A stretch of DNA of 64,000 bases from Candidatus Cloacimonadota bacterium. Its GTDB lineage: Bacteria > Cloacimonadota > Cloacimonadia > G963667145. A program made the translations under genes and the position numbers. Below are positions 7,927-37,732 of this stretch, piece by piece. The notes under the pieces are model-generated. The model had not been told where the DNA came from. It saw only the letters and a program-made list of their open reading frames with translations, and made no database searches. Positions within the stretch are counted from its first letter, which is position 1; every line of letters begins with the position of its first letter. The stretch covers positions 1,079,503-1,143,502 of the forward strand of contig OY762940.1 in NCBI GenBank assembly GCA_963667255.1, written 5' to 3'.

Positions 7927-8152
7927 ACTTCCTCCTAATCAAACAGTTATTAATCAAAATATTACAACATCTTGACCATACAAAGCAATGACAAAAATAG
8001 TGGCAAGGAAAAATTCTAAATTTTGACCCCTCTATTTTTCGGACTAAAAATTCATATGTGATAAAAAAATCGTTAATATATTTAGTAAAAAATGTTTGAC
8101 ATATAAAAAGGAATTTTCTCAAATTGACAAAGAAATATCACATAACAAGGAG

Positions 8153-9244: not shown

Positions 9245-9260
9245 TTTTATTTTTTGTTTA

Positions 9261-9291
9261 AGCGGAAACTGAATAGTTTCCGCTTTTTTTT
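9261..9291 (+). terminator. Rho-independent terminator
   Basis: agcggaaact-gaat-agtttccgct perfect hairpin followed by T8. Confidence 0.65.
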
Positions 9292-9336
9292 GTTCAGAAT
9301 AATTGACATTTTCATTGCCTATCAATTTGTTTCGTC

Positions 9337-11580: not shown

Positions 11581-11581
11581 T

Positions 11582-12160: not shown

Positions 12161-12397
12161 AATCTTTACTCTCTTCGAGCAATGAAATTTTGTGTCAATG
12201 AAAATCTGTTTGATGAAATCTTCACTTTTAATTTGACAAAAAATTATTTAATTAAATTAATCGAGCATGTTTCCGAGTTCACTATCTCGTAGCGATTATC
12301 AGAACCGCCGAATACTGAACCGTTAGGGCATAATTGGAAACGATTATACCTCCCGCATTTGGAAAGGAAACAAAACCAAATTAGGGAGGATTTTAGT

Positions 12398-17975: not shown

Positions 17976-18626
17976 CTACTCTTCTTCCAAATCTATTTCA
18001 ATTTTTAAAGATTTTATCTCGTCAATTTTCTTCAAGTTTTTGGCATAAGCCAAAATCACATCGGCAAAAGTTTTGCTGACATAGTCAATCATCGGCACGA
18101 CTTTTCCGTTGACACTCAAAGAGATTTTCATCTTGCTTTCTCTGTTGCCTTTGCACATCATTTTGAATATTTTCTCCGAATTTTTTGTGGCATCTATCAA
18201 TTTATAGTTCCCAATCTCTTGTTTTCCACTTTGTGAGCAAACTCCCGAATAACACACAATATTGCTAAAATCAATATCTTTCAAATCGGCTTCATCTTTT
18301 AGGCAAACCACTTTTTCATAATCAGAATCTTTAAAACCTTCTAAAATCAAAAAATCTGTTTTAGCTTCGTTTACGATTTTTGATAAAGACTTTTCCTCAT
18401 TGCTTACCGAAAAACAGATTTTGGGACTGCTCCCGATTACTTTGTCCGCACCTGCTTTGAGAGCTTTATCTGTATCCGTATTTTCTTCATCAAAAGTTAT
18501 ATTTTCGCAATGAATATCTTTGGCATAAGTGACCGAAAATCCTTTATTTTTCAGATTTTTAATCAAGTTGATGGAAGTTGTCGTTTTACCCGATTTACTA
18601 AACCCGCAAACATTGATAATTTTCAT
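17976..18626 (-). CDS. MobB-like P-loop protein (molybdopterin-guanine dinucleotide biosynthesis adapter family) with C-terminal extension
   Basis: N-terminal MKIINVCGFSKSGKTTT P-loop as in MobB. Confidence 0.5.
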   Translation of the reverse strand: MKIINVCGFSKSGKTTTSINLIKNLKNKGFSVTYAKDIHCENITFDEENTDTDKALKAGADKVIGSSPKICFSVSNEEKSLSKIVNEAKTDFLILEGFKDSDYEKVVCLKDEADLKDIDFSNIVCYSGVCSQSGKQEIGNYKLIDATKNSEKIFKMMCKGNRESKMKISLSVNGKVVPMIDYVSKTFADVILAYAKNLKKIDEIKSLKIEIDLEEE

Positions 18627-18762
18627 AATTTTATTCCTTTTATTCTTTGTTTAAATTCAGATTATCTCATTCAATTTCGTGAAAATACAAATTGTTTTTT
18701 CTATTATAAAAATGTAAATTTATTTCTTGACTTTAATTAGATTTTACTTGTAATTAGTTCGT

Positions 18763-19938
18763 TTGGGGGTCAGGTCAATGAATAGAAAAATCGCTTTGGA
18801 AATTTTATTGCAAAAAGTTTCCGCTTTAAATTCTTTTAAAATTAATGTCTCAAAAAGCGAAAATTGTGTTCTTGCTTCTCCCGTTTTTTCTCAAATAGAT
18901 TTACCTTCTTTTGATAAATCCGCCATGGACGGCTTTGCCATTTGTGAAGATGAAACTCAAGAAACTTTGCAAGTGGTTGATTTTACAGCTGCTGGCGAAT
19001 CTCCTTCCTCAAAACTTAGCAAAGGGAAAGCGGTTAAAATTTTGACTGGAGCACCTGTTCCTAAAAATGCTTGGAAAATTATTCCCAAAGAATTGGTTAG
19101 TGAAAATGAGAATACTATTGTTCTTAATTGTCAGCTTAAGGAAGCTCCAAACAATATTTGCTCAAAAGGCGAGGATATCCCCCAAGGGCAACTTTTGTAT
19201 CCCAAGGGGACTTTGATTGATATCCGAAAAAAAGCGACTTTGGTTTTTGCAGGAGTAAATGAGGTTGAGGTTTTTTCCAAGCCGAGAATATCGGTGATTA
19301 CCACAGGAAGCGAGGTAGTTTCCTTTGGCGATAAAAGAGGCAAATACCAAGTTTATAATGCCAATGCAGAGTTGCTTTTCGGACTTTTAAATAAAGAGTT
19401 GGACACGGCAGATTTTTCGCATGTTGCCGACGAATACTCTTTGGTGGAAGCGGAATTTAATCAAAAATTTGAGAAGTCCGATTTGTTGATTTTTACCGGT
19501 GGAGCTTCCGTAGGCAAATTTGATTATGTGAAAAAAATGCTGAAATCTTTGGGAGCGGAGGAACTTTTTTCTGGTTTGTCCATCAGACCCGCACGACCTA
19601 CAGCTTGCTATTTGTTTAAGGGCAAATTGATTTTTTCGCTTCCGGGTAATCCTGTGGCGGTTTTTTTGGCTTACCATTTGTTTGTTTTGCCTGTGATTTA
19701 CAAAATGCAGTCCAAAGTTTGTAATTTATTTAGAGAAGTAGAAATTACTGGAAAATTACAAGTTAGATTAAAAGACAGAGAAAATTTTGTTCCGATAAAA
19801 TATAATGACAAAAAAATCGAAATTCTTGATTATAACGGACCTGCGGATTTATATCATATCTCACTTGCAGATGGGTTTTTAGTCGTTCCGCCGGAAACAA
19901 AAATTGTAGAAGGCAAAGCGAAAGTTTTGCTCTTTTAA
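18763..19938 (+). CDS. moeA: MoeA-family molybdopterin molybdenum/tungsten transferase
   Basis: SAMDGFAI motif and GGASVGKFDY / SLPGNP MoeA-type motifs; start may be the ATG at 18778. Confidence 0.75.
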   Translation: MGVRSMNRKIALEILLQKVSALNSFKINVSKSENCVLASPVFSQIDLPSFDKSAMDGFAICEDETQETLQVVDFTAAGESPSSKLSKGKAVKILTGAPVPKNAWKIIPKELVSENENTIVLNCQLKEAPNNICSKGEDIPQGQLLYPKGTLIDIRKKATLVFAGVNEVEVFSKPRISVITTGSEVVSFGDKRGKYQVYNANAELLFGLLNKELDTADFSHVADEYSLVEAEFNQKFEKSDLLIFTGGASVGKFDYVKKMLKSLGAEELFSGLSIRPARPTACYLFKGKLIFSLPGNPVAVFLAYHLFVLPVIYKMQSKVCNLFREVEITGKLQVRLKDRENFVPIKYNDKKIEILDYNGPADLYHISLADGFLVVPPETKIVEGKAKVLLF

Positions 19939-19962
19939 AATAACAAAAAAATTAAGGAGGAC

Positions 19963-20910
19963 ATGATTATGTTCAAAAAATTGAAATTAGTGGCTTTGAT
20001 TTGCATTTTTGCTTTTTCGTCTCTTTTGGCTAAAGAAAGTAAGTTGGTAATTTTCCATGCGGGGAGTTTGGCTATTCCTTTGCAAAAAATGAGCGAGGCT
20101 TTTAACGAGAAGTATCCAGATGTGCAAATAATGAGAGAAGCAGCCGGTTCTCGTGTATGTGCAAGAAAAATCAGTGAGTTGAATAAAAAAGCCGATATTA
20201 TGTTTTCTGCTGATTATACGGTAATTGATGAACTTTTGATTCCTAAGTTTGCCGATTGGAACATTCATTTTGTAACCAACGAAATGGCTATTATGTTTGG
20301 TCATAATGCAAAATATGCCGATGAGATTACTGTTGAAAATTGGCCTGAAATTTTACTTCGCAAAGATGTAACTTACGGACATTCAGACCCTAATGCTGAC
20401 CCATGTGGCTATAGAAGTCAACTTGTTTGGCAATTGGCTGAAAAGTATTACAAATTACCTGGTTTGTATGAAAAATTGAGAGAAAACAATCCTATCGTGA
20501 GACCAAAAGAGACTGACTTGGTGGCTTTGTTGGAAGCCGGAACTCTTAACTATTTGTTTATCTATCGTTCTGTTGCTCAGCAACATGGAGCTAAATATTT
20601 GGTATTGCCTGATGAAATAAATTTGAAGACTGCCAAATTTGCTGATTTTTACAAACAAGCTACTTTTGATATTAGCGGCAAAAAGCCTGGGGAGTTCATT
20701 ACCAAAAAAGGTGCTCCAATGGTTTATGGATTGACTATTCCTAACAATGCGGTAAACAAAAAAATGGCTGAAAAGTTTGTAGCTTTTGTTTTGAGTGAAG
20801 AGGGAAGAAAAATTATGGAAGATTGTGGTCAACCTGCTATCGTTCCGGCAAAGATTACCGGCAAAGAAAAATCACTTCCTTCTTCTATAAAAAAATTTGT
20901 AAAAGAGTAA
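19963..20910 (+). CDS. Tungstate/molybdate ABC transporter substrate-binding protein (WtpA/ModA-like)
   Basis: Signal peptide, periplasmic binding protein pattern similar to WtpA; adjacent permease and TOBE-domain ATPase. Confidence 0.6.
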   Translation: MIMFKKLKLVALICIFAFSSLLAKESKLVIFHAGSLAIPLQKMSEAFNEKYPDVQIMREAAGSRVCARKISELNKKADIMFSADYTVIDELLIPKFADWNIHFVTNEMAIMFGHNAKYADEITVENWPEILLRKDVTYGHSDPNADPCGYRSQLVWQLAEKYYKLPGLYEKLRENNPIVRPKETDLVALLEAGTLNYLFIYRSVAQQHGAKYLVLPDEINLKTAKFADFYKQATFDISGKKPGEFITKKGAPMVYGLTIPNNAVNKKMAEKFVAFVLSEEGRKIMEDCGQPAIVPAKITGKEKSLPSSIKKFVKE

Positions 20911-20925
20911 AAACAGGAAAATCAA

Positions 20926-21696
20926 GTGAAAAAAGTTTTTATTGCTTTGGGTGCGATAATCATCTTTATGATTGTTTTTCCGATTATAAAGATTTTTTGG
21001 GGAATTGACCTTACTATTCTTAGCGATACTTTGAGAGATTCTGTGGTTTTTTCGGCAGTTTTTACTTCTTTGGAATGTTCGCTCTATGCCACACTTGCAG
21101 GATTTCTTCTGGGAATTCCGCTTGCTTACATTATCGCCAGACACAATTTTTATGGTAAAGAACTGGTTTCTTCAATTATAAATATCCCTATCGTCGTGCC
21201 ACATTCGGCGGCAGGGATAGCTCTTTTGTCGGCTTTTGCTTCTCATACTTTTTTGGGGAAAGGGCTTGCCGCACTTGGACTTACCATCATCGATACCAAG
21301 CTTGGTATAAGTTTGGGGATGTTTTTTTTGAGTGTGCCTTTTCTCATCAATCAAAGTATTGGGGGGTTTCTAAGCTATGACGAGAGAATAGAAAAATCTG
21401 CTAGAGTTTTAGGAGCTGGTTTTAGCAGAACTTTTTTTACCATCAGTTTGCCACTTGCTCGGCACGGCATCATCAAAGGTTTCATCATGATGTGGGCAAG
21501 AGGTATTTCGGAGTTCGGAGCTGTGGTCATTTTGGCTTATCATCCGCTTACAGCTTCCGTTTTGATTTTTGAAAGATTTGGAGCTTTCGGCTTGAGATAT
21601 TCCAAGCCGATTGCTTCTTTATTAATTTTAATCTGCCTGTTCATTTTTATGGTAGTGCAATTGATTTCCAATGTTAAAAATAAATCAGATAACTAA
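20926..21696 (+). CDS. ABC transporter permease (WtpB/ModB-like)
   Basis: Polytopic membrane protein with EAA-like loop region typical of ABC importer permeases. Confidence 0.7.
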   Translation: MKKVFIALGAIIIFMIVFPIIKIFWGIDLTILSDTLRDSVVFSAVFTSLECSLYATLAGFLLGIPLAYIIARHNFYGKELVSSIINIPIVVPHSAAGIALLSAFASHTFLGKGLAALGLTIIDTKLGISLGMFFLSVPFLINQSIGGFLSYDERIEKSARVLGAGFSRTFFTISLPLARHGIIKGFIMMWARGISEFGAVVILAYHPLTASVLIFERFGAFGLRYSKPIASLLILICLFIFMVVQLISNVKNKSDN

Positions 21697-22699
21697 AAAA
21701 TTTTCCCAATTTACTCTAAACGAGATAAATTTTACCATTAATAAGGGCGAATGCACCGCAATTTTGGGTCCGTCAGGTTCGGGCAAAACTATTTTGATGG
21801 AGACGATTGTCGGCATTCACAAGCAAACTTCGGGGCAACTATTCCTAAACGGCAAAGAGATTAGCCATACCAAGCCCGAAAATCGCGATATTTCGCTTTT
21901 GTATCAAAATTATATGCTTTTCCCACATCTCAATGTTTACGAAAATATAGCTTTCCCGCTAAAATTACGAAAAATTCCTGAAATTCCGCAAAAGATAAGC
22001 AAAATTGCTCATTTATTGAAGATTGAACATCTTTTGAAAAGGTCGGTTCATAACCTTTCTGGTGGAGAAAAACAGCGGGTCGCTCTTGCCAGAGCCATTA
22101 TTTTTGAACCGCAAGTTCTTCTTTTGGACGAGCCAACTTCGGCGATTGACACTCATATGAAGCGAAAAGTTCGCAAGCTAATTCGGGAAATTCACAAAAG
22201 TCTCAATCTGACTATTCTCTTGGTCACTCATTCCATTGAGGAGGCTATCTATTTGGCGGATTCTTTTGTCTTCCTAAAAGATGGTCAGCAATTACAACAA
22301 GGCAAAAAGTTTGAAGTTTTCAACAATCCCCAAAATCGTTATATCGCCAATTTTCTCGGCTATGACAATGTTTTTGAAGGAGAGGTTGAAGACGGCAAAT
22401 TTGCTATCAAAAACACCAATCTCAAAATATCTTTTTTTAAAGAAGAGATTCCCAAGTGTATTCATGTTTCGCCCGACAATATCATCATTTCCAAGGAAAA
22501 GCCCGAGAGTTCGGCAGTGAATGTTTTTGAAGGAACATTGCAAGATTTTGCTTTCAAAGGCAGTTTCTATCAATTGTTTTTCGACATCGGAGTGGAAATT
22601 TTGGTAAATATCACAGATGCCTCATTCGAAAATCTCCAACCAAAACTCGGCACCAAATTTTATCTATCATTCAAAGAAAGAGGAGTGAAGGGGTTTTAG
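21671..22699 (+). CDS. ABC transporter ATP-binding protein with C-terminal TOBE-like domain (WtpC/ModC-like)
   Basis: Walker A GPSGSGKT, signature LSGGEKQR, Walker B LLLDEPTSAID, about 110 aa C-terminal extension. Confidence 0.75.
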   Translation: MLKINQITKKFSQFTLNEINFTINKGECTAILGPSGSGKTILMETIVGIHKQTSGQLFLNGKEISHTKPENRDISLLYQNYMLFPHLNVYENIAFPLKLRKIPEIPQKISKIAHLLKIEHLLKRSVHNLSGGEKQRVALARAIIFEPQVLLLDEPTSAIDTHMKRKVRKLIREIHKSLNLTILLVTHSIEEAIYLADSFVFLKDGQQLQQGKKFEVFNNPQNRYIANFLGYDNVFEGEVEDGKFAIKNTNLKISFFKEEIPKCIHVSPDNIIISKEKPESSAVNVFEGTLQDFAFKGSFYQLFFDIGVEILVNITDASFENLQPKLGTKFYLSFKERGVKGF

Positions 22700-22708
22700 G
22701 AAATAAAA

Positions 22709-22716
22709 TAATTTAA
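22709..22716. repeat. Target-site duplication (left copy) TAATTTAA
   Basis: Identical 8-mer directly abuts the outer ends of both inverted repeats. Confidence 0.65.
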
Positions 22717-22733
22717 GGTTCAAGATAACTTGA
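22717..22733. repeat. IS left terminal inverted repeat GGTTCAAGATAACTTGA
   Basis: Perfect 17-bp reverse complement of 23437-23453. Confidence 0.8.
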
Positions 22734-22763
22734 CAAGTGAATTATACTAGTTAAGTTGTTGAT

Positions 22764-23450
22764 ATGCCAATAAGAAACAAGTACGTAAAAAACTCCAAAA
22801 TTTCTGAAGAAAAATTTAGAGAAATAATTAAGTTTTTTTCTTTGGATATTGAGGCTAGTAAAATAGCACTTTTGACCAAAATTAGTAGAAAAACAGTTAA
22901 CAATTATTTACTTAAAATTAGAGAGAGAATTGCTGAATTTTGTTGTGAGGATTCTCATCTTTCTGGAATAATTGAAGTTGATGAATCTTACTTTGGAGCG
23001 AAAAGAGTTAAGGGGAAACGAGGACGAGGTGCTGGAGGTAAAATTAAAGTTTTCTGATTGCTCAAAAGAGGCGACAAAGTTTACACTCAAATGGTTGATA
23101 ATTGTAGCAGAAAGACATTACAAGCGATAATAAAAGAAAGGATAGAAAAGGGTAGTGAAATTCACTCTGATGGATGGAAAGCTTATAATGGATTGGTTGA
23201 TTTAGGATACCAAAAACACTATAGAGTTGACCATTCGAGCAATGAATTTGCCAATAAAAATGGACATATTAATGGGATTGAGAACTTTTGGGGAATAGCA
23301 AAATTGAGACTAACAAAATTTAAAGGAATTCATAAAAATATGTTCTATTTACACTTAAAAGAATGTGAATTTAGGTTTAATCATAGAAAGCAAAATTTAT
23401 ATAAAATTTTGCTAAAAATGTTCCGAAATAATCCGCTCAAGTTATCTTGA
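22764..23450 (+). pseudogene. IS1595-family (ISXO2-like) DDE transposase interrupted by a single in-frame TGA (23055-23057) at a conserved Gly position
   Basis: Translations ...IIEVDESYFGAKRVKGKRGRGAGGKIKVF*LLKRGDKVYTQ...SEIHSDGWKAYNGL...HYRVDHS...NGIENFWG... match the family pattern ETYFGGKRKGKRGRGA-GK-VFG-LER-G-V; stop replaces the G of VFG. Confidence 0.7.
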
Positions 23451-23453
23451 ACC
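23437..23453. repeat. IS right terminal inverted repeat
   Basis: Reverse complement equals GGTTCAAGATAACTTGA. Confidence 0.8.
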
Positions 23454-23461
23454 TAATTTAA
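23454..23461. repeat. Target-site duplication (right copy) TAATTTAA
   Basis: Identical to 22709-22716. Confidence 0.65.
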
Positions 23462-23537: not shown

Positions 23538-25781
23538 ATGAGTATAGAACAAAGTATAATTTCTAGGCGAGAAAGTGATAAGAAAGTTGAAACCCAACAA
23601 TGGTTTCAAAAACTTATACAAACAAGCGAATATGTTGGTGATTTGTATTCTATCAACTATGAAACCGCAAGAGTAATAATTCATGATTTCTATAGAGAGA
23701 AAGTCGGAGGAATTCCAAGCTTAAGTTTTTTAATTGCCTCAAGAGTTGACCCCAATAATTCAGAAATTGATTTTAAAACAGAGGATGCATCATTTATTCT
23801 TTTAAGAGTAATGGATGCTATAGCGCTTCCGCAGGATAGAGAGGCAGAAAGAATTAGAGTTGAAACAGCACAAAGAATAAGTGGTGAAACTGAAAAAAAT
23901 TGGGATGAAGCAGGTTCAATGGATTTAAGAACAAAAAATCTGTTAAGTTTTGCTGGTGTTCAGTGCAGAATAATTGGAACATTTTATCTCGAAGAAAATG
24001 GAGAAAATGGAGAAGCACCACTTAATTTAAAATTTGGTAGTGATATTTCAAATTATTATCCAAACAGAGGATTAAAAGTTTATAAACCAAACGGGAAGGC
24101 TCTTGAGTTAATAGTAAATTATTCTGATCCTTCAAATATTCAAGCACACATTGAAAAATATGGAAACACAGAAAATGTAAAATTGGGTTTTGTAAGATAT
24201 GCTTCAACAAATAGAAAATATCAACAAATTAGTGATGTCCCTGTTTATATTTATCCAGCAGACCTTCTATCTCAAAAATCTGCCTTGTTTGGAATGACAA
24301 GGACAGGAAAATCCAATACGACTAAAATAATTGCAAAATCTGTTTTTGAATTACGAAATGCACAACGGTCTGGAGAAAATCCATTAAGAATTGGACAAAT
24401 AATTTTTGATCCCAACGGTGAATATGCCAATGAAAATGTTCAAGATAGGGACGGTAGCGGTAATCCAAATGCATTAAAAAATATTTGGCGAAAAGACGAA
24501 ACTTTAAGAAATATTGCTGATAAGCTGAAACAACAATATATTCAAGAAACAGAAATCGAAGAAAAGAAAAGATTATGGAATGAAATAAAATCATTGGTTG
24601 AAACAGAGGTGGTTACATATGGTATTTTACCACATCCACTAGACCCATTTCGTAGATTAATGAAAATAAACTTTTATGAAGAAGACAATCTTCAAATAGG
24701 TAAAGAAATCATTGATTTTAAAATTGCGGAGCAGTCAGCTCAGTATATTAAAAATTTTCGACAAGTTGTTTTCAAAAGACCAGTAGAAGATGAATACGAG
24801 AATGAGGTTGAATTTAATGGACAATTAAGGCGTTTTGAGAGAAGAGTTCTTGTTTATTGTGCATTGCTAAATAAAGCAGGTTTTAATCCACCGTTTCGAA
24901 CAGTTAATATTTCAAGAATGTTTAATGCTGACCTAAGAAATGCTATGATTAACTATTCTGAAAAAAAATTTACACGTAAACAAGGATTAATAAATGCAGC
25001 GGGTCAAACTCTGTCACAAACAAATGTAACCTGGGATAGTCTTGCACCTGCTTTTGAAGGTTTGTTCCATTTCCTTTCAACTGCTGATTACAATACATTC
25101 AACCAAGATTACATAAATAATCATCGTGATGATGAGAATGAGGATGCTACAGGAGAAGGTTGGGCTGAAGCAGAACTTGAAAGTTTGTTGGAAATGTTTA
25201 ATTATTCAAAAGCTATTAATCTAATTGGTGGTGTAAATACACAACATACAACATCAATAAGAACAGATTACGCCGAAGATATTTATAATGATTTAACTGA
25301 AGGGAAACTTGTTATTATTGACCAATCAAGTGGTGAGCCAGAACTAAACAAGTCTTCAGCAAATAGAATAATGTGGCATATTTTTAAAGCTAACCAAAGT
25401 GCATTTCGAGAGGGTGAGAAATTAATTCCCGAAATATTGGTTTATGTGGAGGAAGCTCATAATATATTACCAGCTGGTAATGATTTAGATTTAACCGATG
25501 TTTGGGTTAGGACAGCAAAGGAAGGTTCAAAATATAGAATTGGGATGGTTTACGCAACCCAAGAAGTAAGTAGTATTCAAAGAAATATTTTAAAAAATAC
25601 AGCGAATTGGTTTATAAGCCATTTAAACAATACTGATGAAACCAAAGAACTATGCAAGTACTATGATTTTGAAGACTTTGAGCCATCAATAAGGCGAGCA
25701 CAGGATAAGGGTTTTTTAAGAGTTAAAACTTTAAGCAATCTGTTTGTAATTCCAGTTCAGGTTGACAAATTTGAAGTCTAA
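23538..25781 (+). CDS. HerA/DUF87-like (FtsK-HerA superfamily) ATPase with about 250-aa N-terminal domain of unknown type
   Basis: Walker A GMTRTGKS (about aa 252), Walker B of hhhh-EEAH type ILVYVEEAH (about aa 637), downstream ATQ motif RIGMVYATQEV typical of HerA-family ATPases. Confidence 0.6.
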   Translation: MSIEQSIISRRESDKKVETQQWFQKLIQTSEYVGDLYSINYETARVIIHDFYREKVGGIPSLSFLIASRVDPNNSEIDFKTEDASFILLRVMDAIALPQDREAERIRVETAQRISGETEKNWDEAGSMDLRTKNLLSFAGVQCRIIGTFYLEENGENGEAPLNLKFGSDISNYYPNRGLKVYKPNGKALELIVNYSDPSNIQAHIEKYGNTENVKLGFVRYASTNRKYQQISDVPVYIYPADLLSQKSALFGMTRTGKSNTTKIIAKSVFELRNAQRSGENPLRIGQIIFDPNGEYANENVQDRDGSGNPNALKNIWRKDETLRNIADKLKQQYIQETEIEEKKRLWNEIKSLVETEVVTYGILPHPLDPFRRLMKINFYEEDNLQIGKEIIDFKIAEQSAQYIKNFRQVVFKRPVEDEYENEVEFNGQLRRFERRVLVYCALLNKAGFNPPFRTVNISRMFNADLRNAMINYSEKKFTRKQGLINAAGQTLSQTNVTWDSLAPAFEGLFHFLSTADYNTFNQDYINNHRDDENEDATGEGWAEAELESLLEMFNYSKAINLIGGVNTQHTTSIRTDYAEDIYNDLTEGKLVIIDQSSGEPELNKSSANRIMWHIFKANQSAFREGEKLIPEILVYVEEAHNILPAGNDLDLTDVWVRTAKEGSKYRIGMVYATQEVSSIQRNILKNTANWFISHLNNTDETKELCKYYDFEDFEPSIRRAQDKGFLRVKTLSNLFVIPVQVDKFEV

Positions 25782-25792
25782 ATTGAGTTAAT

Positions 25793-27160
25793 ATGGGGTT
25801 TGAAGGAGAATTTGCCAGTTATGAGCCATTAAGGCGAATGCTTGATAGTGATAAAGTTAAATCACTACAAGACAGACTGAAAATACGAAAACAAGAAGAA
25901 GAAACAGATACTTTCACTGGCTCAATTGTTAAAAAGTCAGACTTGACTGAAAGCTCAATACAACCTGATTTAGTTTTAGCAATTGATGGAAGCAATTTGG
26001 CGGCTAAAGCTGAAAGTGGATTTCCGGGTGCTGAATTTGGATATATTACAATAGCTTCTGTTTTAATAGATTTAAAACTTATTGATGATTTAGAAAAGAA
26101 ACAGTTTATTGACCCCAAAAAGGTTAGAGAAACAGAAAAAGCATCGACAATAGAAAGTGTCTTCCCCGGTTGCAATGTAATTTTGGACACAGAAAAAAAT
26201 GCAAATGCTTCACTTCGAAGAGCATTATTTGAAGAATTAAAATGTAACACAATATTTGCTAACGGTGGAGAAACATTATTGGATACTTATGAATACCTCT
26301 TCAGAATAAAGAGAGAGCATTTCTCTGAAAGCCGTCTTCCAAGAAGCCCTATTGATGGTATTGATAAAGAAATGACTTATGGATACGATGAATATCCTTG
26401 TCCTCATTCAGGAGAGCCATTATATTCAACTGATGCTTTGCGTTTACATGAATTAATGAATCCTGGTGGTAGTAATGGTGAAATGTTTGGGCAAATAATG
26501 TCAACTCTTGAAAAGGTATGGTTGGTTCATATACTCAGAGCATTTGAACAAAAAGAATGGTTATCAACCCTTCGGAGAGTAGCATTTATTATGGATGGAC
26601 CATTAGCTGTATTTAGTACTTCATCTTGGTTGACAAAAGTTATTAATTATGAATTAAATAGGCTAAATGAATTGCAGAAAGCAGTTAACGGTCAGGATTT
26701 ATTAATTATCGGTATTGAAAAATCAGGAACATTCGTAAATCATTTCGAAGAAATTGATACGACTAAAGATGGAGTTACAGATAAATTTCCAAAACAATCA
26801 GCATTACTGCTTGACGATGGCTATATAAAAAGAAATATTATTTTTTCTGAAAGCATAAAACCATATGGTCAAGACACTTATTTTGGAAGAAAAATATTTT
26901 ATAAAACTGCTTCTGGACAAAAAATAGTTCCAGTAATTGCATGTTATAATGACCAACAAAGAAATACCTCAACAGCAAATCCAAATCAATTTTCAAGGCT
27001 TTCAGATGTTATGAATTTGCTTGATAAATTGGTTTCAAGTAGATATCCAAATTCCGTTTCTCCTTTAGTATCTGCTCATGCAGAAGCAGCAATTCCTTTA
27101 AATTTAGGTAAACGGATATTTGAGGATATTGCAAGAGAAATAAGAGAAAAATCAAATTGA
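25793..27160 (+). CDS. NurA-like nuclease
   Basis: N-terminal LVLAIDGS motif, central IIGIEKSG motif, C-terminal His (SAHAEAA) consistent with NurA D-E-D-H layout; 11-nt gap to upstream gene. Confidence 0.5.
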   Translation: MGFEGEFASYEPLRRMLDSDKVKSLQDRLKIRKQEEETDTFTGSIVKKSDLTESSIQPDLVLAIDGSNLAAKAESGFPGAEFGYITIASVLIDLKLIDDLEKKQFIDPKKVRETEKASTIESVFPGCNVILDTEKNANASLRRALFEELKCNTIFANGGETLLDTYEYLFRIKREHFSESRLPRSPIDGIDKEMTYGYDEYPCPHSGEPLYSTDALRLHELMNPGGSNGEMFGQIMSTLEKVWLVHILRAFEQKEWLSTLRRVAFIMDGPLAVFSTSSWLTKVINYELNRLNELQKAVNGQDLLIIGIEKSGTFVNHFEEIDTTKDGVTDKFPKQSALLLDDGYIKRNIIFSESIKPYGQDTYFGRKIFYKTASGQKIVPVIACYNDQQRNTSTANPNQFSRLSDVMNLLDKLVSSRYPNSVSPLVSAHAEAAIPLNLGKRIFEDIAREIREKSN

Positions 27161-28287
27161 TGATTACAAAGGAAAAGATATTAAAAGGTTATAAAACCGC
27201 GGAGGCTCGATGGGCAAGATTTGGTCCATATTATGCCATGTTTCCTTTGGATTTTGCATTTGAGGTTGTTGAGAAATACTCAAAAAAAGGTGATTACATA
27301 CTTGACCCTTTTGCAGGTAGATGTAGCAGTATCTATGCTGGTGGTGTGCTTGGTCGAGTTAGCTTAGGTATTGAAATTAATCCCGTAGGCTGGCTCTTTG
27401 GGAAAGTAAAATTAGAACCTGCAGATAAGGAAGATGTAATTGACCGTTTACTTGAAATTTATGGTAAGCGAAATTATTATAGATGCTCAACTAAAAAATT
27501 ACCAGAATTTTATAGGATATGTTATAGCGATGAAGTCCTAAAATTCCTATTAGCAGCGAGAGCAAATCTTGACTGGATAAATAATGACATTGATGCAACT
27601 CTTATGTCAATTCTTTTGGTTTACTTACATGGTAAATTAGGAGAATGTTTGTCAAATCAAATGAGAATGACAAAGTCAATGGGAATGAACTATTCTGTTG
27701 AATGGTGGAAAAAAAATGGACTAACAAAACCACCTGAAATTAATCCCTTTGAATTCATTCTTAAAAAGATTGAATGGAGATATGAAAAAGGGACACCAAA
27801 TGTTACTGAAAGTGCAGTTGTATTTGGTGATAGTTCTAATCAATTAATCAACATTTCAGAGAGAGCCATTCAAAATGATATTAAATTTTCGCTTCTGTTT
27901 ACATCTCCACCATATTATTCAATCACAGATTACCATGCAGACCAGTGGCTGAGATTATGGCTGTTAGGAGGTTCAGAAAATCCGCAATCATTAAAAGACA
28001 AACATAAAGGAAGATTTGTAAACAAAGTTGATTACTACAATTTACTTGATACTGTATTTGAACTTAGTTCACGAATGATGGACGAAAGGAGTACAATTTA
28101 TGTCAGGACAGACAAGCGTGAATTTACTTTTAATTCTACTTTAGAGATTTTAAACAAGCATTTTCCAAATTATAAAACAAAGATTATTGAAAAGCCTTTA
28201 ACTAAAGACACCAAGACTCAGACAAAATTATTTGGTGACAAATCAATGAAGCCTGGAGAAGTTGATATAATATTACAAATAGAATAA
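27157..28287 (+). CDS. DNA methyltransferase (N6-adenine or N4-cytosine type)
   Basis: AdoMet motif I ILDPFAGRCSS followed by GRVSLGIEINP; catalytic motif IV FTSPPYY about 200 aa downstream; start overlaps upstream stop (ATGA). Confidence 0.6.
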   Translation: MMITKEKILKGYKTAEARWARFGPYYAMFPLDFAFEVVEKYSKKGDYILDPFAGRCSSIYAGGVLGRVSLGIEINPVGWLFGKVKLEPADKEDVIDRLLEIYGKRNYYRCSTKKLPEFYRICYSDEVLKFLLAARANLDWINNDIDATLMSILLVYLHGKLGECLSNQMRMTKSMGMNYSVEWWKKNGLTKPPEINPFEFILKKIEWRYEKGTPNVTESAVVFGDSSNQLINISERAIQNDIKFSLLFTSPPYYSITDYHADQWLRLWLLGGSENPQSLKDKHKGRFVNKVDYYNLLDTVFELSSRMMDERSTIYVRTDKREFTFNSTLEILNKHFPNYKTKIIEKPLTKDTKTQTKLFGDKSMKPGEVDIILQIE

Positions 28288-31558: not shown

Positions 31559-31936
31559 TTAGAGTTCAGCTACGACGAATGCGATTGCTGTCTCTTTTTC
31601 GTGAGAGATACTTAGATTAATTTTTTTAATTCCAAGGCTCTCACATTTTTTTTTTGTCTCGAAATGCAAAGCGATGTCAACTTTTCCGTTTTCGCTCTTC
31701 ACAACTTCGACTTGATTTGGACTGACTCCATCGCTAAAGCCGGTTCCTAACGCTTTGCTAAAAGCCTCTTTAGCTGCAAATCTCGCTGCGAAGTGTATAG
31801 CCGGATTTGGCTTGCATTGACAAAAAGAGATTTCTTCTTCCAAAAAAATCTTCTGCAAGAACTTATCACCAAATTTCTCAATCGATTTCTGTATTCTTGC
31901 TACTTCGACGATATCAACACCAATTCCGTAAATCAT
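31559..31936 (-). CDS. acpS: Holo-[acyl-carrier-protein] synthase
   Basis: [12 protein letters not shown]...[14 protein letters not shown]...[17 protein letters not shown]; ORF-track N-terminal extension rejected because it crosses tRNA-Arg. Confidence 0.75.
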
Positions 31937-31958
31937 ATCTATATTCCAAACAAAAAAA

Positions 31959-32035
31959 TGGCACGCCCGTAGGGATTCGAACCCCAAACCTTCTGATCCG
32001 TAGTCAGATGCTCTATCCAATTGAGCCACGGGCGC
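31959..32035 (-). tRNA. tRNA-Arg (anticodon ACG), with encoded CCA
   Basis: Manual fold: acceptor GCGCCCG, anticodon stem TCTGA/TCAGA with loop CTACGGA, GGTTCGAAT T-loop. Confidence 0.85.
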
Positions 32036-32294
32036 AACGACCGATACAAAGTTAAGAGGCACGATTTTCAGTCAATATTTTTCTTTGTGAAATGGCGGGA
32101 AACCTAATATGTATAGATTTGAGTTATAAATAGGGAATTTGCTTGACGGGAATATTGGGAGTTTAAAACAATTTAGAATAAGATTTCCAGGAGGGAACAA
32201 TTGAAGTATAAAATTTTAGAATTTTATCAAAAATTGTTGAAGAATATATGAAACTGTTTACTAAAAATTTAAAAAAGACAGAAGTTAATAAAAA

Positions 32295-35356: not shown

Positions 35357-37732
35357 ATGAAAATTTCTTTGAAATGGTTAAGACAGTTTATTGATTTCGA
35401 CCTTACGATAGATGAGTTTACCGACAAATTAACTTTTTCTGGTATAGAGGTGGAAGAGGTTATTGATACTCAGACAACCATCAAAGATATTATTGTTGGC
35501 AAGATTGTCAAAGCGGAAAAACATCCCGATGCGGAAAAGTTAAAAGTTTGCACAGTTTTCGACGGGAAAGCTGAACATCAAGTCGTGTGTGGAGCACCCA
35601 ATTGTCGTGAAGGCTTACTATCGGCTTTTGCTCCTGTCGATGCAGTAATCGGCGACATCAAGATAAAGAAGGCTAAACTCAGAGGATTGGAATCTTGCGG
35701 TATGCTTTGCAGTAGCAAAGAGCTATCCATCGACAGCGACCACAGTGGCATAATGGAATTGCCCGAAGATGCTGTTGTTGGCTCGCCTTTGTCAGCTTTA
35801 GGTTATGGAGATATTGTTGTCGATGTGGAGATTACGCCCAATAGACCGGATTTATTGGGAATGGTTGGTCTTGCACGCGATATTGCTGCTATTCTCGGCA
35901 AGCCTTACAAAAAGCCGGAAACAAGCGATGTAAAGTTTACTGCGGGGGAATTGCCGTGTGGGATTAAGCTGATTAATAATGTTCCTGAGGCTTCTCCGAG
36001 ATTCATTTTGTCCGAGATTAACGGCGTGACCGTCAGCAAGAAAATGCCTTTTTGGATGAGCACCGCTCTTGATTCTAACGGGGTCAATAAGGTTAGCGAC
36101 TTGGTTGGTGTTACCAACTATCTGCTTTTGGAGCAGGGTCAGCCTATGCACGCTTACGATATGGACAAAATTGAGGGTGGAATTATTGAGGTTCGCTTTG
36201 CTAAAAAAGGCGAGAAAATCGAGGCTCTCAACGGTAAGACTTATGAACTTCGGGAGACAGATTTGGTCATTGCCGATGCCGTCAAAGTCCTCAGTATAGC
36301 CGGTGTTATCGGTGGTAAGTCGTCAGCAATTAGTTTGGAAACCAAAAATGTTCTGTTGGAGATAGGGAATTTTTCTTATCCGTTCATTCATAAAACTTCT
36401 CATCATTTCAAGATTTTTACAGATGCTTCTTACCGATGTGAGAGGGATTTGTCGCCAAAGGCTTTGGGAGAAGTTTTGCCCCGAGCAACCGAGATGATGG
36501 CTCAAGTCGGCAAGGGCAAATTTCAGACTGTTTATGCTGATTCTTGTCCCGAGACAAAAGAGGATATTGTGGTTTCTTTGCGACCATCGAGAGTTCGCAA
36601 ATTTCTCAATGTTGAAATTTCCGACAAAAAAATTATCTCTTATTTAACCGATTTGGAGATTAAACTATTGTCTGAAAAAGAAGATTTGTTGGAATTTTCC
36701 GTGCCGTATTTTAGAGGAGATATTTATCGTGAAGCGGATTTGATAGAGGAAATTATCAGACTGCACGGATATAACAATGTCCCCTCGTTTATCAATAATC
36801 AAGTGATTGGCGATAGATTTAAGAGGGAAATTAAGCGGAAAACCGAAGATTTCCTTGTTCTGAATGGATTTTATCAAGCAATTAATACCAGTTTTGTCAG
36901 CGAAGATTTGAGTAGTGGGATAGTGGACAAACCGATTGTTGAGCTTATTAATCCTCTCGGTGCTGATATGGCTTTTATGCGTCGCGAGTTGCTCCCGCAA
37001 TTGCTCAAAAATGTGGAACTCAATCTGAATAAGGGTCAAGAGATTGTTAAGCTGTTTGAGTTGAACAAGGTCTATTTTGCCAAAGAAGATGGATTTGCTC
37101 ACGAGCCTTTGCAGTTGGCTATGGTTGCTTGCGGCAAAACCGAAAAAATGCATTGGATGAACAGCGGACACGATTATGGTATTTACGAATTGAAAGGGAT
37201 TTTGGAAGACTATTTGGATTTTCTCGGAGAGGACGATTACAAATATGCTATCTCTCAAAGTGAAACTGTGTTCGAGCCTTCTTGCAGTTTGGATTTGGAG
37301 ATTAAGGGGCAAAAATTGGTTAGCTTGGGAAGAGTGAAGAAAGCAATTACAAAGAAATTCGGTATTAAAAAAGATGTTTTTGCTTTGATTTTTGATTTTG
37401 AGAAATCTTTGTCATTGTTTGCTGATAAGAGTTTTCAGTTTGCTTTGCCACAAAAATATCCGTCTGTGAAGAGGGATTTGTCCATTGTTATCGATTTGAA
37501 ATACTCTTATGAGGAGATAAAGAAGGCGATAGAGAAAAGTTCCGCTTTTATCCAATCGGTTGAACTTTATGACAAATACGAAGGTAAGGGGATAGACCAA
37601 GAGAAGAGAAGTTTGACATTTGCTCTGAATTTCTTTTCAAAAGAAAAAACCTTGACCGATAGTTTGGTAGCGGAAGACTTTGATAAGATAGTTTGTGAGT
37701 TGCAAGAGAGTTTTGGTGCTAAACTCAGATGA
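35357..37732 (+). CDS. pheT: Phenylalanine--tRNA ligase beta subunit
   Basis: N-terminal MKISLKWLRQFIDFDLTIDEF, tRNA-binding domain, 791 aa. Confidence 0.9.
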   Translation: MKISLKWLRQFIDFDLTIDEFTDKLTFSGIEVEEVIDTQTTIKDIIVGKIVKAEKHPDAEKLKVCTVFDGKAEHQVVCGAPNCREGLLSAFAPVDAVIGDIKIKKAKLRGLESCGMLCSSKELSIDSDHSGIMELPEDAVVGSPLSALGYGDIVVDVEITPNRPDLLGMVGLARDIAAILGKPYKKPETSDVKFTAGELPCGIKLINNVPEASPRFILSEINGVTVSKKMPFWMSTALDSNGVNKVSDLVGVTNYLLLEQGQPMHAYDMDKIEGGIIEVRFAKKGEKIEALNGKTYELRETDLVIADAVKVLSIAGVIGGKSSAISLETKNVLLEIGNFSYPFIHKTSHHFKIFTDASYRCERDLSPKALGEVLPRATEMMAQVGKGKFQTVYADSCPETKEDIVVSLRPSRVRKFLNVEISDKKIISYLTDLEIKLLSEKEDLLEFSVPYFRGDIYREADLIEEIIRLHGYNNVPSFINNQVIGDRFKREIKRKTEDFLVLNGFYQAINTSFVSEDLSSGIVDKPIVELINPLGADMAFMRRELLPQLLKNVELNLNKGQEIVKLFELNKVYFAKEDGFAHEPLQLAMVACGKTEKMHWMNSGHDYGIYELKGILEDYLDFLGEDDYKYAISQSETVFEPSCSLDLEIKGQKLVSLGRVKKAITKKFGIKKDVFALIFDFEKSLSLFADKSFQFALPQKYPSVKRDLSIVIDLKYSYEEIKKAIEKSSAFIQSVELYDKYEGKGIDQEKRSLTFALNFFSKEKTLTDSLVAEDFDKIVCELQESFGAKLR

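What the first reader, a model, noticed from the sequence alone, without database searches (positions are those of the whole stretch)
23538..28287. HerA-like ATPase / NurA-like nuclease / DNA methyltransferase operon: candidate undescribed modification-linked defence system
Three tightly packed co-directional genes (11-nt gap, then ATGA overlap) sit immediately downstream of an IS element. Gene 1 has HerA/DUF87-type motifs (GMTRTGKS, VYVEEAH, ATQ). Gene 2 has NurA-type motifs (AIDGS, IEKSG). Gene 3 has DNA-MTase motifs I (DPFAGRCSS) and IV (SPPYY). HerA-NurA pairs are established end-resection helicase-nuclease machines in archaea, and HerA-family ATPases partner nucleases in several bacterial anti-phage systems. 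Coupling such a pair to a DNA methyltransferase suggests a restriction-modification-like logic in which methylation marks self and HerA-NurA degrades unmodified DNA. I do not recognise this triad as a named system.
Basis: partly seen in the sequence, partly recalled or inferred. Interest (0 to 1): 0.9.

Follow-up and report, generated by a model that had tools for sequence, protein, structure and literature searches.

The report
HerA–NurA–methyltransferase mobile defence-like cassette
Three tightly linked genes (a ring ATPase that pumps DNA, a nuclease and a DNA methyltransferase) form a strictly conserved, horizontally mobile cassette found across many phyla; it most likely works like a restriction-modification system, is unnamed in every source I could search, and resembles most closely the recently solved TdpAB complex.

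Summary
Window 23538-28287 holds three co-directional genes: a HerA/DUF87 ATPase (747 aa), a NurA nuclease (455 aa) and a PF01555 DNA methyltransferase (375 aa). A separate 739-bp IS1595-type element lies 83 bp upstream.

The triad is a strict evolutionary unit. In 64 of 65 testable metagenome loci, and in every genome locus with a PF01555-type relative not cut by a contig end, the methyltransferase follows the NurA gene in the same order. This holds down to about 30% identity, across more than 15 bacterial phyla and a haloarchaeal plasmid.

More distant relatives replace the methyltransferase with a Dam-type one. The cassette travels as Tn7-like cargo and probably as an integron cassette, and distant relatives sit in Vibrio prophages. 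It is absent from the syntenic site of the closest relative genome.

Among solved structures, the closest match to the ATPase is TdpA of TdpAB, the restriction half of the phosphorothioate-based Tdp system. TdpB aligns colinearly with the nuclease, but below significance.

Best reading: a methylation-based, Tdp-like restriction-modification cassette. The function is inferred, not shown. Neither PADLOC 2.0 nor the papers searched name it. The ATPase also carries a hypervariable helical insert that is exchanged between cassettes.

The parts
23538..25781 (+). Gene 1: HerA/DUF87-family (FtsK-HerA superfamily) ATPase, 747 aa; predicted hexameric dsDNA translocase
   Evidence: Pfam DUF87 2.4e-12. 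The PDB profile search gives TdpA (8wet) as best hit at 2.5e-16. Foldseek of the AF2 model (pLDDT 72.9) gives TdpAB at 2e-12, then T. kodakarensis HerA-NurA and the anti-phage HerA structures. The start codon is conserved in homologues.
24291..24314 (+). Walker A motif GMTRTGKS (aa 252-259)
   Evidence: Invariant in 44 aligned homologues; position.
24438..25262 (+). Hypervariable, mostly helical insert of gene 1 (aa 301-575), lying between Walker A and Walker B; exchanged between cassettes
   Evidence: Median pairwise identity is 0.39 here against 0.77 for the rest of the protein. Of 3371 pairs with at least 88% identical cores, 937 have inserts at most 50% identical. At 50% identity there are 21 insert types against 6 core clusters. 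Mosaic example with L055: N-terminal part 96.7%, insert 44.6%, C-terminal part 79.7%. The AF2 model is confident (pLDDT about 80-95) over aa 311-530.
25440..25460 (+). Walker B region VYVEEAH (aa 635-641)
   Evidence: E638, E639, A640 and H641 are invariant; position.
25793..27160 (+). Gene 2: NurA-family nuclease (RNase H-like fold), 455 aa
   Evidence: Pfam NurA 1.7e-31 over profile positions 2-254 of 254. D65, D214 and D268 are invariant and H429 at least 90% conserved in the 36-sequence alignment A6; H219 and E220 are invariant in the 13-sequence alignment A4. There is a colinear but sub-threshold match to TdpB (8wet_G), E 0.19-0.69. The AF2 model was poor (pLDDT 47.6) and was not used.
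26339..26413 (+). Degenerate zinc-ribbon insert in the NurA domain (aa ~183-207; only C203 is kept), followed by the invariant motif TDxLRxHE
   Evidence: Distant family members have CxxC...CxxC at this position. The window clade has lost three of the four cysteines. The profile gives a weak match to C2H2 fingers.
27160..28287 (+). Gene 3: PF01555 (N6/N4) DNA methyltransferase, 375 aa, with motif I (DPFAGRCSS, nt 27304-27330) ahead of motif IV (SPPYY, nt 27904-27918)
   Evidence: Pfam N6_N4_Mtase 8.7e-11 in two stretches. PADLOC Type II MTase models score down to 4e-17, colinear over aa 27-285. TSPPY is invariant as far as the Halorarius homologue. Motif I is the canonical GxG in distant homologues. 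There is no hypervariable target-recognition region.
22716..23454 (+). Adjacent but separate: a 739-bp IS1595-type element (perfect 18-bp terminal inverted repeats; transposase ORF interrupted by an in-frame TGA)
   Evidence: Inverted repeat I3. Pfam DDE_Tnp_IS1595 1e-18. AATTTA is present on both flanks. The element is not found next to the triad in any other locus examined.

Best explanation
This is a self-contained, horizontally mobile, restriction-modification-like cassette with three steps.

1. The PF01555 methyltransferase marks the host's DNA. The SPPY motif IV suggests N4-methylcytosine, though N6-methyladenine is possible. The family lacks a variable target-recognition region, which suggests one short motif shared by all members.
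2. The HerA-like protein forms a hexameric, ATP-driven dsDNA translocase. The NurA-like protein forms the nuclease that docks on it, as in archaeal HerA-NurA and in TdpAB.
3. The complex threads and degrades DNA that lacks the mark, such as phage, plasmid or other incoming DNA. On marked self DNA, loading, translocation or cleavage is blocked. From my recollection of An et al. 2025, phosphorothioate protects DNA from TdpAB in the same way.

What is shown: the gene arrangement, the domain identities, the intact catalytic motifs, the strict three-gene linkage, and mobility.

What is inferred: complex formation, the methylation target, protection by methylation, and the anti-phage effect.

The swappable helical insert of the ATPase (aa 301-575) is probably an exposed module. 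It may read the DNA or the trigger, dock a partner, or be the target of phage inhibitors. Which of these applies is not known.
For: Domain assignments and intact Walker A/B, D-E-D-H and methyltransferase motifs I and IV.

Tight spacing suggests co-transcription and translational coupling.

Strict linkage and order:
- The triad occurs in the same order in every genome locus with a PF01555-type relative that is not cut by a contig end.
- The methyltransferase lies directly downstream of the NurA gene in 64 of 65 metagenome loci, including 35 of 36 whose NurA is under 50% identical to the window's. The HerA-like gene lies upstream in 65 of 68.
- The ATPase core, the nuclease and the methyltransferase co-evolve (Spearman 0.82-0.85).

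Replacement of the modification gene by a different family. Distant HerA-NurA pairs carry a D12/Dam-type methyltransferase upstream (Hymenobacter, next to an AbiE pair) or convergently (Vibrio prophage, between integrase and excisionase). A Halorarius plasmid keeps the PF01555 type.

Closest solved structure. By both sequence and fold it is TdpA of TdpAB. TdpB shares the N-terminal MPYxGE and the DG, FIxDGxLA and AH motifs in colinear order. Tdp is a modification-based restriction system (PMC12914056).

Mobility and context:
- Cargo directly after tnsE in Acinetobacter Tn7-like elements.
- Units with integron-cassette-like boundaries, next to a tyrosine recombinase that matches integron-integrase models just below cut-off.
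- Neighbours include GajA/PtuA-type ATPases, REase-ARP, HigB toxins, a NACHT/STAND NTPase and a serine recombinase.
- No conserved fourth gene: the 143 neighbouring ORFs fall into 171 Pfam families.

Evidence of horizontal transfer. The nuclease is 77-96% identical between Bacteroidota and Acinetobacter. It is 90% identical in a genome whose PheT is only 68% identical. G+C is low. The closest relative genome lacks the triad at the syntenic site.
Against: - There is no experimental evidence of any kind.
- No domain that reads sequence or methylation was identified in the ATPase or the nuclease. The zinc ribbon of the nuclease is degenerate in this clade. How base methylation would be sensed is therefore unexplained.
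- In TdpAB the protecting mark is on the DNA backbone, not on a base, so the analogy may not carry over.
- Motif I of the methyltransferase is GRC instead of the canonical GxG. Activity is assumed.
- The defence-gene signal among neighbours is modest and was not tested statistically: roughly 10-15 of 143 ORFs.
- In the window and in L055 the cassette sits among housekeeping genes with no other defence gene nearby.
- The match to TdpB is not statistically significant.
- The one studied operon with the same three domains (Thermus ICEth1) was found to serve DNA donation, not defence (PMC5365140).
Confidence: 0.6

Rival explanations
1. DNA-donation or transfer module. As in Thermus thermophilus ICEth1, a HerA/FtsK-like pump (TdtA) and a NurA-like nuclease process and push out donor DNA for cell-to-cell transfer ('transjugation'). 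The co-transcribed methylase plays only a minor role.
For: ICEth1 has a four-gene operon: Tth111II, a NurA-like gene, tdtA and a PF01555 methylase. The NurA-like gene and tdtA are required for DNA donation. Loss of the methylase has only minor effects (PMC5365140, PMC7767461). The window cassette is also carried by mobile elements.
Against: The gene order differs: NurA comes before the ATPase in ICEth1. No type IIG enzyme or conjugation-related gene accompanies the triad in more than 120 loci. The methyltransferase is the most strictly retained partner and is replaced by a different methyltransferase family in distant relatives. That is not expected if it were dispensable. The cassette occurs in 1.6-Mb genomes and on small integron-type cassettes without transfer functions.
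Confidence: 0.08
2. Selfish addiction module. The triad behaves mainly as a post-segregational killing unit: loss of the methyltransferase exposes the chromosome to HerA-NurA. This stabilises itself and the element that carries it (integron array, Tn7, prophage), with little real antiviral benefit.
For: The cassette is compact, self-contained and highly mobile. It lies among toxin-antitoxin pairs in integron-like arrays (HigB/Gp49-HTH in L006, AbiE in L052). Classical R-M systems are known to behave this way (established knowledge).
Against: This uses the same molecular logic as the best explanation and does not exclude it. Very high conservation across phyla and the diversifying insert in the ATPase fit an arms race with external parasites better.
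Confidence: 0.12
3. The methyltransferase is a recognition or regulatory subunit rather than only a self-marker. As with Mod in Type III systems or PglX in BREX, it would bind unmodified sites and recruit or license the HerA-NurA motor-nuclease.
For: No recognition domain is evident in genes 1 or 2. The linkage is strict, the stop and start codons overlap, and the methyltransferase co-evolves with both partners.
Against: Distant relatives use an unrelated Dam-type methyltransferase in a different position and orientation. This argues against an obligate structural subunit. No interaction data exist.
Confidence: 0.1
4. Housekeeping double-strand-break end-resection machinery (bacterial HerA-NurA as in Deinococcus) that merely lies next to an unrelated methyltransferase.
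For: NCBI annotation calls homologues 'DNA double-strand break repair nuclease NurA'. The domain families are those of the archaeal repair complex.
Against: The distribution is sporadic and the cassette is transferred horizontally. It is absent from the closest relative genome. No Mre11/Rad50 lies next to it in the window, and no Mre11/Rad50-type family appears among the 25 commonest Pfam families of the 143 neighbours. The methyltransferase is linked in 64 of 65 loci. The cassette is carried by Tn7 and integron-like elements.
Confidence: 0.04

Closest known systems
TdpABC, the phosphorothioate-based restriction-modification system of thermophiles (An et al., Nat Chem Biol 2025, PMID 39820821; PDB 8wet, 8wfd, 8y1k)
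   Same: TdpA is the best solved match to gene 1 by sequence profile (2.5e-16) and by fold (2e-12). TdpB (375 aa) shares colinear hallmark motifs with the NurA-like gene 2. Both are three-component systems of an ATPase, a nuclease and one DNA-modifying enzyme. Going by the gene names, the modification gene comes third in both.
   Different: The modification enzyme is a PF01555 methyltransferase (a base methyl mark), not TdpC (a backbone sulfur). Gene 1 is about 160 aa longer and has a hypervariable helical insert. Gene 2 is 80 aa longer and has a zinc-ribbon remnant. The window family is mesophilic and spread across many phyla. Similarity to TdpB is below significance. The Tdp paper itself could not be read here. 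The mechanism I quote is from memory of its abstract and from PDB entry titles.
Archaeal and Deinococcus HerA-NurA DNA end-resection complex
   Same: The same two protein families (Pfam DUF87/HerA and NurA). T. kodakarensis HerA-NurA (9x1m) and S. solfataricus HerA (4d2i) are among the fold matches. The expected architecture is a hexameric translocase with a nuclease docked on it.
   Different: The triad is not linked to Mre11-Rad50 and is not vertically inherited. It is always linked to a DNA methyltransferase and is carried on mobile elements.
Thermus thermophilus ICEth1 operon (Tth111II, NurA-like TTC1878, TdtA TTC1879, PF01555 methylase TTC1880)
   Same: It is the only described operon found with the same three domain families together on a mobile element (PMC5365140, PMC7767461).
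   Different: The order is nuclease then ATPase. There is an extra type IIG restriction enzyme. The reported role is DNA donation in transjugation, and the methylase is nearly dispensable. Protein lengths differ (377 and 410 aa against 455 and 375 aa). Orthology was not testable here.
Anti-phage HerA systems: SIR2-HerA (Nezha) and DUF4297-HerA
   Same: A HerA-family hexameric ATPase paired with an effector. Their structures appear among the fold matches, and the PADLOC HerA models give weak partial hits (about 1e-14).
   Different: The effector here is NurA, not SIR2 or DUF4297/Cap4. Those systems contain no modification enzyme and act by NAD+ depletion and/or nuclease activity without a self mark.
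Classical Type I-III restriction-modification systems; BREX, DISARM and MADS
   Same: A methyltransferase is linked to an NTP-dependent motor and a nuclease. Self is presumably told from non-self by methylation. There is a weak hit of gene 1 to MADS mad8 (5.9e-14).
   Different: The motor is an FtsK-HerA-type ring ATPase, not an SF2 helicase. The nuclease has an RNase H-like NurA fold, not a PD-(D/E)XK or HNH fold. There is no specificity subunit and no variable target-recognition domain. None of the other MADS, BREX or DISARM genes is present.

Membership tests
HerA-NurA helicase-nuclease pair (protein-family level) | FtsK-HerA superfamily ATPase with intact Walker A and B motifs | tested here: met
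   Pfam DUF87 2.4e-12; HerA-type fold matches; invariant GMTRTGKS and EEAH.
HerA-NurA helicase-nuclease pair (protein-family level) | Adjacent NurA-domain nuclease with conserved acidic and His catalytic residues | tested here: met
   Pfam NurA 1.7e-31 over the full profile. D65, D268 (invariant), H219/E220 (invariant in A4) and H429 (at least 90%) are conserved.
Archaeal-type DSB end-resection system | Operonic or functional link with Mre11-Rad50; core, vertically inherited gene set | tested here: not met
   The window flanks are modC/IS and a thiF-like gene. No Mre11/Rad50-type family appears among the 25 commonest Pfam families of the 143 neighbours. The triad is absent from the closest relative genome. 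Identities are discordant with PheT.
TdpABC | TdpA-like hexameric ATPase | tested here: met
   Best PDB sequence hit is 8wet_A at 2.5e-16. Best Foldseek hits are 8wet and 8wfd at 2e-12. Only 14-16% identity, TM-score about 0.4-0.56.
TdpABC | TdpB-like nuclease partner | tested here: inconclusive
   There is a colinear motif match to 8wet_G, but E = 0.19 and 0.69. The AF2 model of gene 2 was too poor for a fold search.
TdpABC | TdpC phosphorothioation enzyme as the modification component | tested here: not met
   Gene 3 is a PF01555 methyltransferase. This was also true of 64 of 65 metagenome loci.
Classical restriction-modification system | DNA methyltransferase with AdoMet-binding and catalytic motifs | tested here: met
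   Motif I DPFAGRCSS and motif IV SPPYY; Pfam and PADLOC Type II MTase hits.
Classical restriction-modification system | Endonuclease or specificity subunit that recognises the same sequence as the methyltransferase | tested here: not met
   No PD-(D/E)XK, HNH or HsdS-like domain is present. The methyltransferase has no variable recognition region. The variable insert of gene 1 does not co-vary with the methyltransferase (Spearman 0.46 against 0.82 for the core).
Classical restriction-modification system | Demonstrated restriction of unmodified DNA and protection by the cognate methylation | not testable with these tools
   Needs plaque or transformation assays and methylome sequencing.
SIR2-HerA / DUF4297-HerA (Gao_Her) | SIR2 or DUF4297 effector next to HerA | tested here: not met
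   The partner is NurA. PADLOC HerA hits are partial, at about 1e-14 or weaker. NCBIfam HerA_antiphage scores 31.7 bits against a cut-off of 800.
MADS | Eight-gene mad1-mad8 locus | tested here: not met
   Only a weak mad8 hit to gene 1 (5.9e-14, partial). Genes 2 and 3 have no mad hits, and the flanks are unrelated.
ICEth1 TdtA operon | NurA-like, HerA/FtsK-like ATPase and PF01555 methylase genes co-transcribed on a mobile element | tested here: met
   The domain content is the same (against PMC5365140). Mobile carriage was seen in relatives.
ICEth1 TdtA operon | Orthology to TdtA/TTC1878/TTC1880, an adjacent type IIG enzyme, and a role in DNA donation | not testable with these tools
   The Thermus HB27 sequences are not retrievable here. 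Gene order differs, and no type IIG enzyme lies next to the triad in the window or among the 25 commonest Pfam families of the neighbours sampled.
Integron gene cassette (vehicle of the triad in relatives) | GTTRRRY/RYYYAAC core sites, an attC-type imperfect palindrome, and an array next to an integron integrase | tested here: inconclusive
   In related loci:
- L006 and L007 are 99% identical exactly over 7687-12757, with unrelated flanks.
- GTT-type and AAC-type core sites lie at the borders.
- A ~110-nt palindrome lies at 12629-12738.
- Repeats of 100-150 bp recur through L006.
- The truncated tyrosine recombinase scores 210.5 bits against the 220 cut-off of the XerA/integron-integrase model.

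No attC covariance model was available. The window copy has none of these features.

The most novel reading that the evidence does not exclude
The triad defines a large, uncharacterised, cross-phylum family of methylation-gated HerA-NurA 'DNA shredders', the base-methylation counterpart of the phosphorothioate Tdp system. It spreads as an integron cassette, as Tn7 cargo and in prophages. A recombinationally swapped helical module in the ATPase would set what the machine recognises or evades. That would be a way of diversifying restriction specificity, or resistance to inhibitors, that does not go through the methyltransferase.
Probability: 0.4. Interest if true: 0.75.

Novelty: new variant of a known kind. 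Interest (0 to 1): 0.62.

Why it matters
If it is confirmed, several things follow.

- **A new kind of restriction-modification.** The effector would be a ring translocase plus an RNase H-like exonuclease, not a site-specific endonuclease. The system would degrade DNA processively rather than cut at sites. The question of how a ring motor or its nuclease senses base methylation would then become directly testable.
- **A link between Tdp and methylation.** It would show that TdpAB-like restriction modules have been paired with at least three modification chemistries: phosphorothioate, a PF01555 methyltransferase and a Dam-type methyltransferase.
- **Corrected annotation.** Thousands of genes are currently labelled 'DNA double-strand break repair nuclease NurA' or 'DUF87'. 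The library of one representative per 50%-identity cluster holds 627 matches to the nuclease.
- **An example for integron biology.** It would be a 5-kb, three-gene defence operon with its own promoter that moves as an integron cassette.
- **A target for structural work.** The swappable insert of the ATPase is a clear candidate.

Tried and rejected
- **AF2 model of gene 2.** The alignment was too shallow. The model had pLDDT 47.6 and was not used for a fold search.
- **PDB sequence searches with gene 2.** A single sequence and a narrow profile found nothing. Broader profiles gave only sub-threshold TdpB matches and spurious zinc-finger matches.
- **Rfam.** Nothing was found on three related loci, so the flanking hairpins match no curated RNA family.
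- **Promoter and terminator scan of the window locus.** No better than shuffled sequence: 24 promoter-like sites against 25.3 expected.
- **Viral contigs.** Only 3 distant relatives (26% identity) in 2.9 million contigs, and two Vibrio prophages among GenBank phages. The window-type triad is not typically phage-borne.
- **Plasmids.** Only 5 distant hits.
- **Paralogy with the other 747-aa ORF (9337-11580).** Rejected: BLASTP E = 1.2.
- **The IS1595 element as the vehicle of the triad.** Rejected: it has its own perfect inverted repeats and flanking duplication, and it is absent next to the triad elsewhere.
- **A conserved fourth gene.** Rejected: the 143 neighbouring ORFs fall into 171 Pfam families, none found in more than 4 loci.
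- **The variable insert as the partner of the methyltransferase's specificity.** Not supported: correlation is weak, and the methyltransferase has no variable region.
- **Literature.** Ten full-text searches found no paper that describes the triad. An et al. 2025, Makarova et al. 2011 and Iyer et al. 2004 are not held. A 2025 review of R-M and the Tn7-cargo survey do not mention HerA or NurA.

Full report
**1. What is there**

The window holds three co-directional ORFs:
- Gene 1: 23538-25781, 747 aa.
- Gene 2: 25793-27160, 455 aa.
- Gene 3: 27157/27160-28287, 375 aa from the conserved ATG.

Genes 1 and 2 are separated by 11 nt. The stop codon of gene 2 overlaps the start of gene 3 (TTGATG). 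This is a 1-nt overlap with the ATG or a 4-nt overlap with the TTG.

Pfam assigns gene 1 to DUF87/HerA (2.4e-12). It assigns gene 2 to NurA (1.7e-31, covering the whole profile) and gene 3 to N6_N4_Mtase (8.7e-11). They are invariant or nearly invariant among homologues.

An IS1595-type element lies 83 bp upstream, at 22716-23454. It has perfect 18-bp inverted repeats, AATTTA on both flanks and an in-frame TGA in its transposase. It is a separate simple insertion and does not accompany the triad in any other locus.

The region has 31-34% G+C against 38-44% around it.

**2. The triad is a strict unit**

NurA homologues number at least 1845 in the 90%-identity protein collection. The best 120 are 77-96% identical and come from Chitinophagaceae, Flectobacillus, Pontibacter, Flavobacterium, Bacteroidales and Acinetobacter. 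In the library of one representative per 50%-identity cluster, 627 representatives match at E <= 1e-3 and 131 at E <= 1e-30.

In 45 loci from species-representative genomes, the order ATPase, nuclease, methyltransferase is kept in every locus with a PF01555-type relative that is not cut by a contig end. This holds down to 31% nuclease identity. The hosts are Bacteroidota, Ignavibacteria, Nitrospirae, Omnitrophota, Zixibacteria, KSB1, Cloacimonadota, Acidobacteria, Spirochaetia, Dehalococcoidia, gamma-proteobacteria, CPR bins and 'uncultured archaeon' bins. The short MAG contigs could be mis-binned.

In 80 metagenome loci (29-97% identity to the window's nuclease), the PF01555-type methyltransferase lies directly downstream in 64 of 65 testable cases. 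The HerA-like gene lies upstream in 65 of 68.

The ATPase core, the nuclease and the methyltransferase co-evolve (Spearman 0.82-0.85).

No fourth gene is conserved. The 143 flanking ORFs of 25 loci fall into 171 Pfam families.

**3. The link to DNA methylation goes beyond one methyltransferase family**

- A Halorarius plasmid has DUF87, a NurA-like gene (28% identical) and a PF01555 methyltransferase.
- A Hymenobacter contig has a D12/Dam-type methyltransferase upstream of the pair, followed by an AbiEi/AbiEii module.
- Vibrio prophages carry integrase, a split HerA, a NurA-like gene and a convergent D12 methyltransferase, followed by the excisionase.
- A Tolypothrix plasmid has an exonuclease-STAND protein instead of a methyltransferase.

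When the modification gene is replaced by one from another family but the nuclease module is kept, the two are likely to work together.

**4. Mobility**

In Acinetobacter the triad directly follows tnsE of Tn7-like elements.

In Chitinophagaceae and several other lineages it lies on a unit of about 5.07 kb with integron-cassette-like borders:
- The left border carries a GTT-type core site. The right border carries an AAC-type core site followed by a palindrome of about 110 nt.
- L006 and L007 are 99% identical exactly over 7687-12757, and their flanks are unrelated.
- Similar repeats of 100-150 bp recur through the L006 array.
- A tyrosine recombinase heads the array. It scores just under the cut-off of the XerA/integron-integrase model.

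The host of the window belongs to a group of uncultured single-contig genomes of 1.54-1.59 Mb. Their PheT is only 40-43% identical to named Cloacimonadota.

The closest relative genome (PheT 86% identical) is syntenic from the thiF-like gene to pheT but has no triad. Homology to the window begins within about 35 nt after the methyltransferase stop codon.

A further relative (PheT 68% identical) has the triad at a different site. Its nuclease is 90% identical to the window's, but the cassette is a mosaic.

Neighbours elsewhere include GajA/PtuA-type ATPases, REase-ARP, ResIII, HigB toxins and resolvases. Bacteroides fragilis has a 1299-aa NACHT/STAND NTPase next to the triad, and Sediminibacterium has a large serine recombinase.

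**5. Closest characterised relatives**

A profile of gene 1 hits TdpA (PDB 8wet) best, at 2.5e-16, ahead of all other HerA proteins. The AF2 model (pLDDT 72.9) gives TdpAB as the best fold match at 2e-12. T. kodakarensis HerA-NurA and the SIR2-HerA and DUF4297-HerA structures follow.

TdpB is the only nuclease-like PDB chain that the NurA-like profiles touch. The match is not significant (E 0.19-0.69). It is colinear, however, and covers the N-terminal MPYxGE, the first DG motif, FIxDGxLA and the C-terminal AH motif.

Tdp is described as a third phosphorothioate-based restriction-modification system, in which tdpC alone makes the modification (PMC12914056). From my memory of the abstract of An et al. 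2025, phosphorothioate on self DNA blocks translocation and cleavage by TdpAB. That paper is not held here, so this point is unverified.

The other precedent is the Thermus ICEth1 operon: Tth111II, a NurA-like gene, TdtA and a PF01555 methylase. There the ATPase and the nuclease are needed for DNA donation, and the methylase matters little (PMC5365140, PMC7767461).

**6. Most likely mechanism**

The three genes are probably co-transcribed and translationally coupled.

The methyltransferase has motif I ahead of motif IV, and motif IV is SPPY. By established motif knowledge, SPPY is typical of N4-cytosine enzymes. The protein shows no hypervariable recognition region across the family, so one shared target motif is expected.

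Gene 1 has intact Walker A and B motifs. By homology it should form a hexameric dsDNA pump.

Gene 2 keeps the D (65), E (220), D (268) and H (429) residues of NurA. By homology it should dock on the ring as a nuclease.

I infer that the complex processively destroys unmarked DNA and is stopped on methylated DNA. How a base methyl group would be sensed remains open.

**7. An unexpected feature**

Residues 301-575 of gene 1 form a confidently modelled helical insert between Walker A and Walker B. The insert is hypervariable and is exchanged between cassettes:
- Median pairwise identity is 0.39 in the insert against 0.77 in the rest of the protein.
- 28% of pairs with near-identical cores have inserts at most 50% identical.
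- At 50% identity there are 21 insert types against 6 core clusters.

The insert does not track the methyltransferase (Spearman 0.46). It could be a reader, a docking surface or a target of inhibitors.

**8. Novelty**

PADLOC-DB 2.0 has no model that hits the nuclease. For the ATPase it gives only weak, generic HerA and mad8 hits. NCBIfam offers no specific family.

Ten full-text searches, a 2025 R-M review and the Tn7-cargo survey yielded no description of the triad. Subscription-only literature and current DefenseFinder and REBASE could not be checked.

Because TdpABC and ICEth1 exist, I rate this a new variant of a known kind rather than categorically new.

**9. Verdict**

Function remains inferred.

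- Confidence in the R-M-like defence reading: about 0.6.
- Interest: 0.62.

Noticed in passing
L006 7687-12757 (also L007, L008, L009, L012, L013, L014, L055): In these relatives the triad sits on a unit of about 5.07 kb with integron-cassette-like borders: CGTT|RGG... on the left, RYYYAAC plus a palindrome of about 110 nt on the right. A tyrosine recombinase lies upstream (210.5 bits against a cut-off of 220 for the XerA/integron-integrase model). attC-like repeats of 100-150 bp recur through the array. The window copy has none of this.
   Followed up: partly
L006 7763-7826 and 12501-12571 (equivalents in L008, L009, L012-L014, L047, L055): Two homologous hairpins of about 70 nt, in direct orientation, bracket the operon inside the cassette. 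Each has 20-23-nt arms, a 24-25-nt loop with similar sequence, and a conserved ACA/AGA internal mismatch. The upstream hairpin is followed by a T-run and a Bacteroidetes-type -7 box, TAAATTTG. Five of the 7 predicted pairs keep pairing through changes on both sides. Rfam has no match. The function is unknown.
   Followed up: partly
window 24438-25262 (gene 1, aa 301-575): A hypervariable helical insert in the ATPase is exchanged between otherwise near-identical cassettes. The window type (269-278 aa) is only about 30-36% identical to the commonest type.
   Followed up: yes
window 26339-26452 (gene 2, aa ~183-220): Distant family members have a CxxC...CxxC zinc ribbon inserted in the NurA domain. 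The window clade keeps only C203 of the four cysteines. The motif TDxLRxHE that follows is conserved, with D214, H219 and E220 invariant in the 13-sequence alignment.
   Followed up: partly
window 22716-23454: A very small (739 bp) IS1595-type element with perfect 18-bp terminal inverted repeats and AATTTA on both flanks. Its transposase reading frame is interrupted by an in-frame TGA at 23055-23057.
   Followed up: partly
window 17976-22699 compared with L061 1-3031: The molybdenum cofactor and molybdate/tungstate ABC transporter cluster upstream of the triad is also absent from the syntenic position in the closest relative genome. The whole stretch upstream of the thiF-like gene is therefore variable between relatives.
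   Followed up: no
window as a whole (marker gene pheT, 35357-37732): The host belongs to a set of six uncultured single-contig genomes of 1.54-1.59 Mb. Their PheT is only 40-43% identical to named Candidatus Cloacimonadota, which points to a deep, small-genome lineage.
   Followed up: partly
window 31559-32062 (- strand) and tRNA-Arg 31959-32035 (- strand): The mechanical ORF for the ACP synthase extends over the tRNA-Arg gene on the same strand. Its true start must lie downstream of the tRNA.
   Followed up: no
L124 2394-4511; L057 1309-3502: Gene 1 appears to be disrupted in one activated-sludge contig: the match ends at aa 452, about 885 bp before the nuclease gene. In the Vibrio prophage version it is split into two ORFs.
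   Followed up: no
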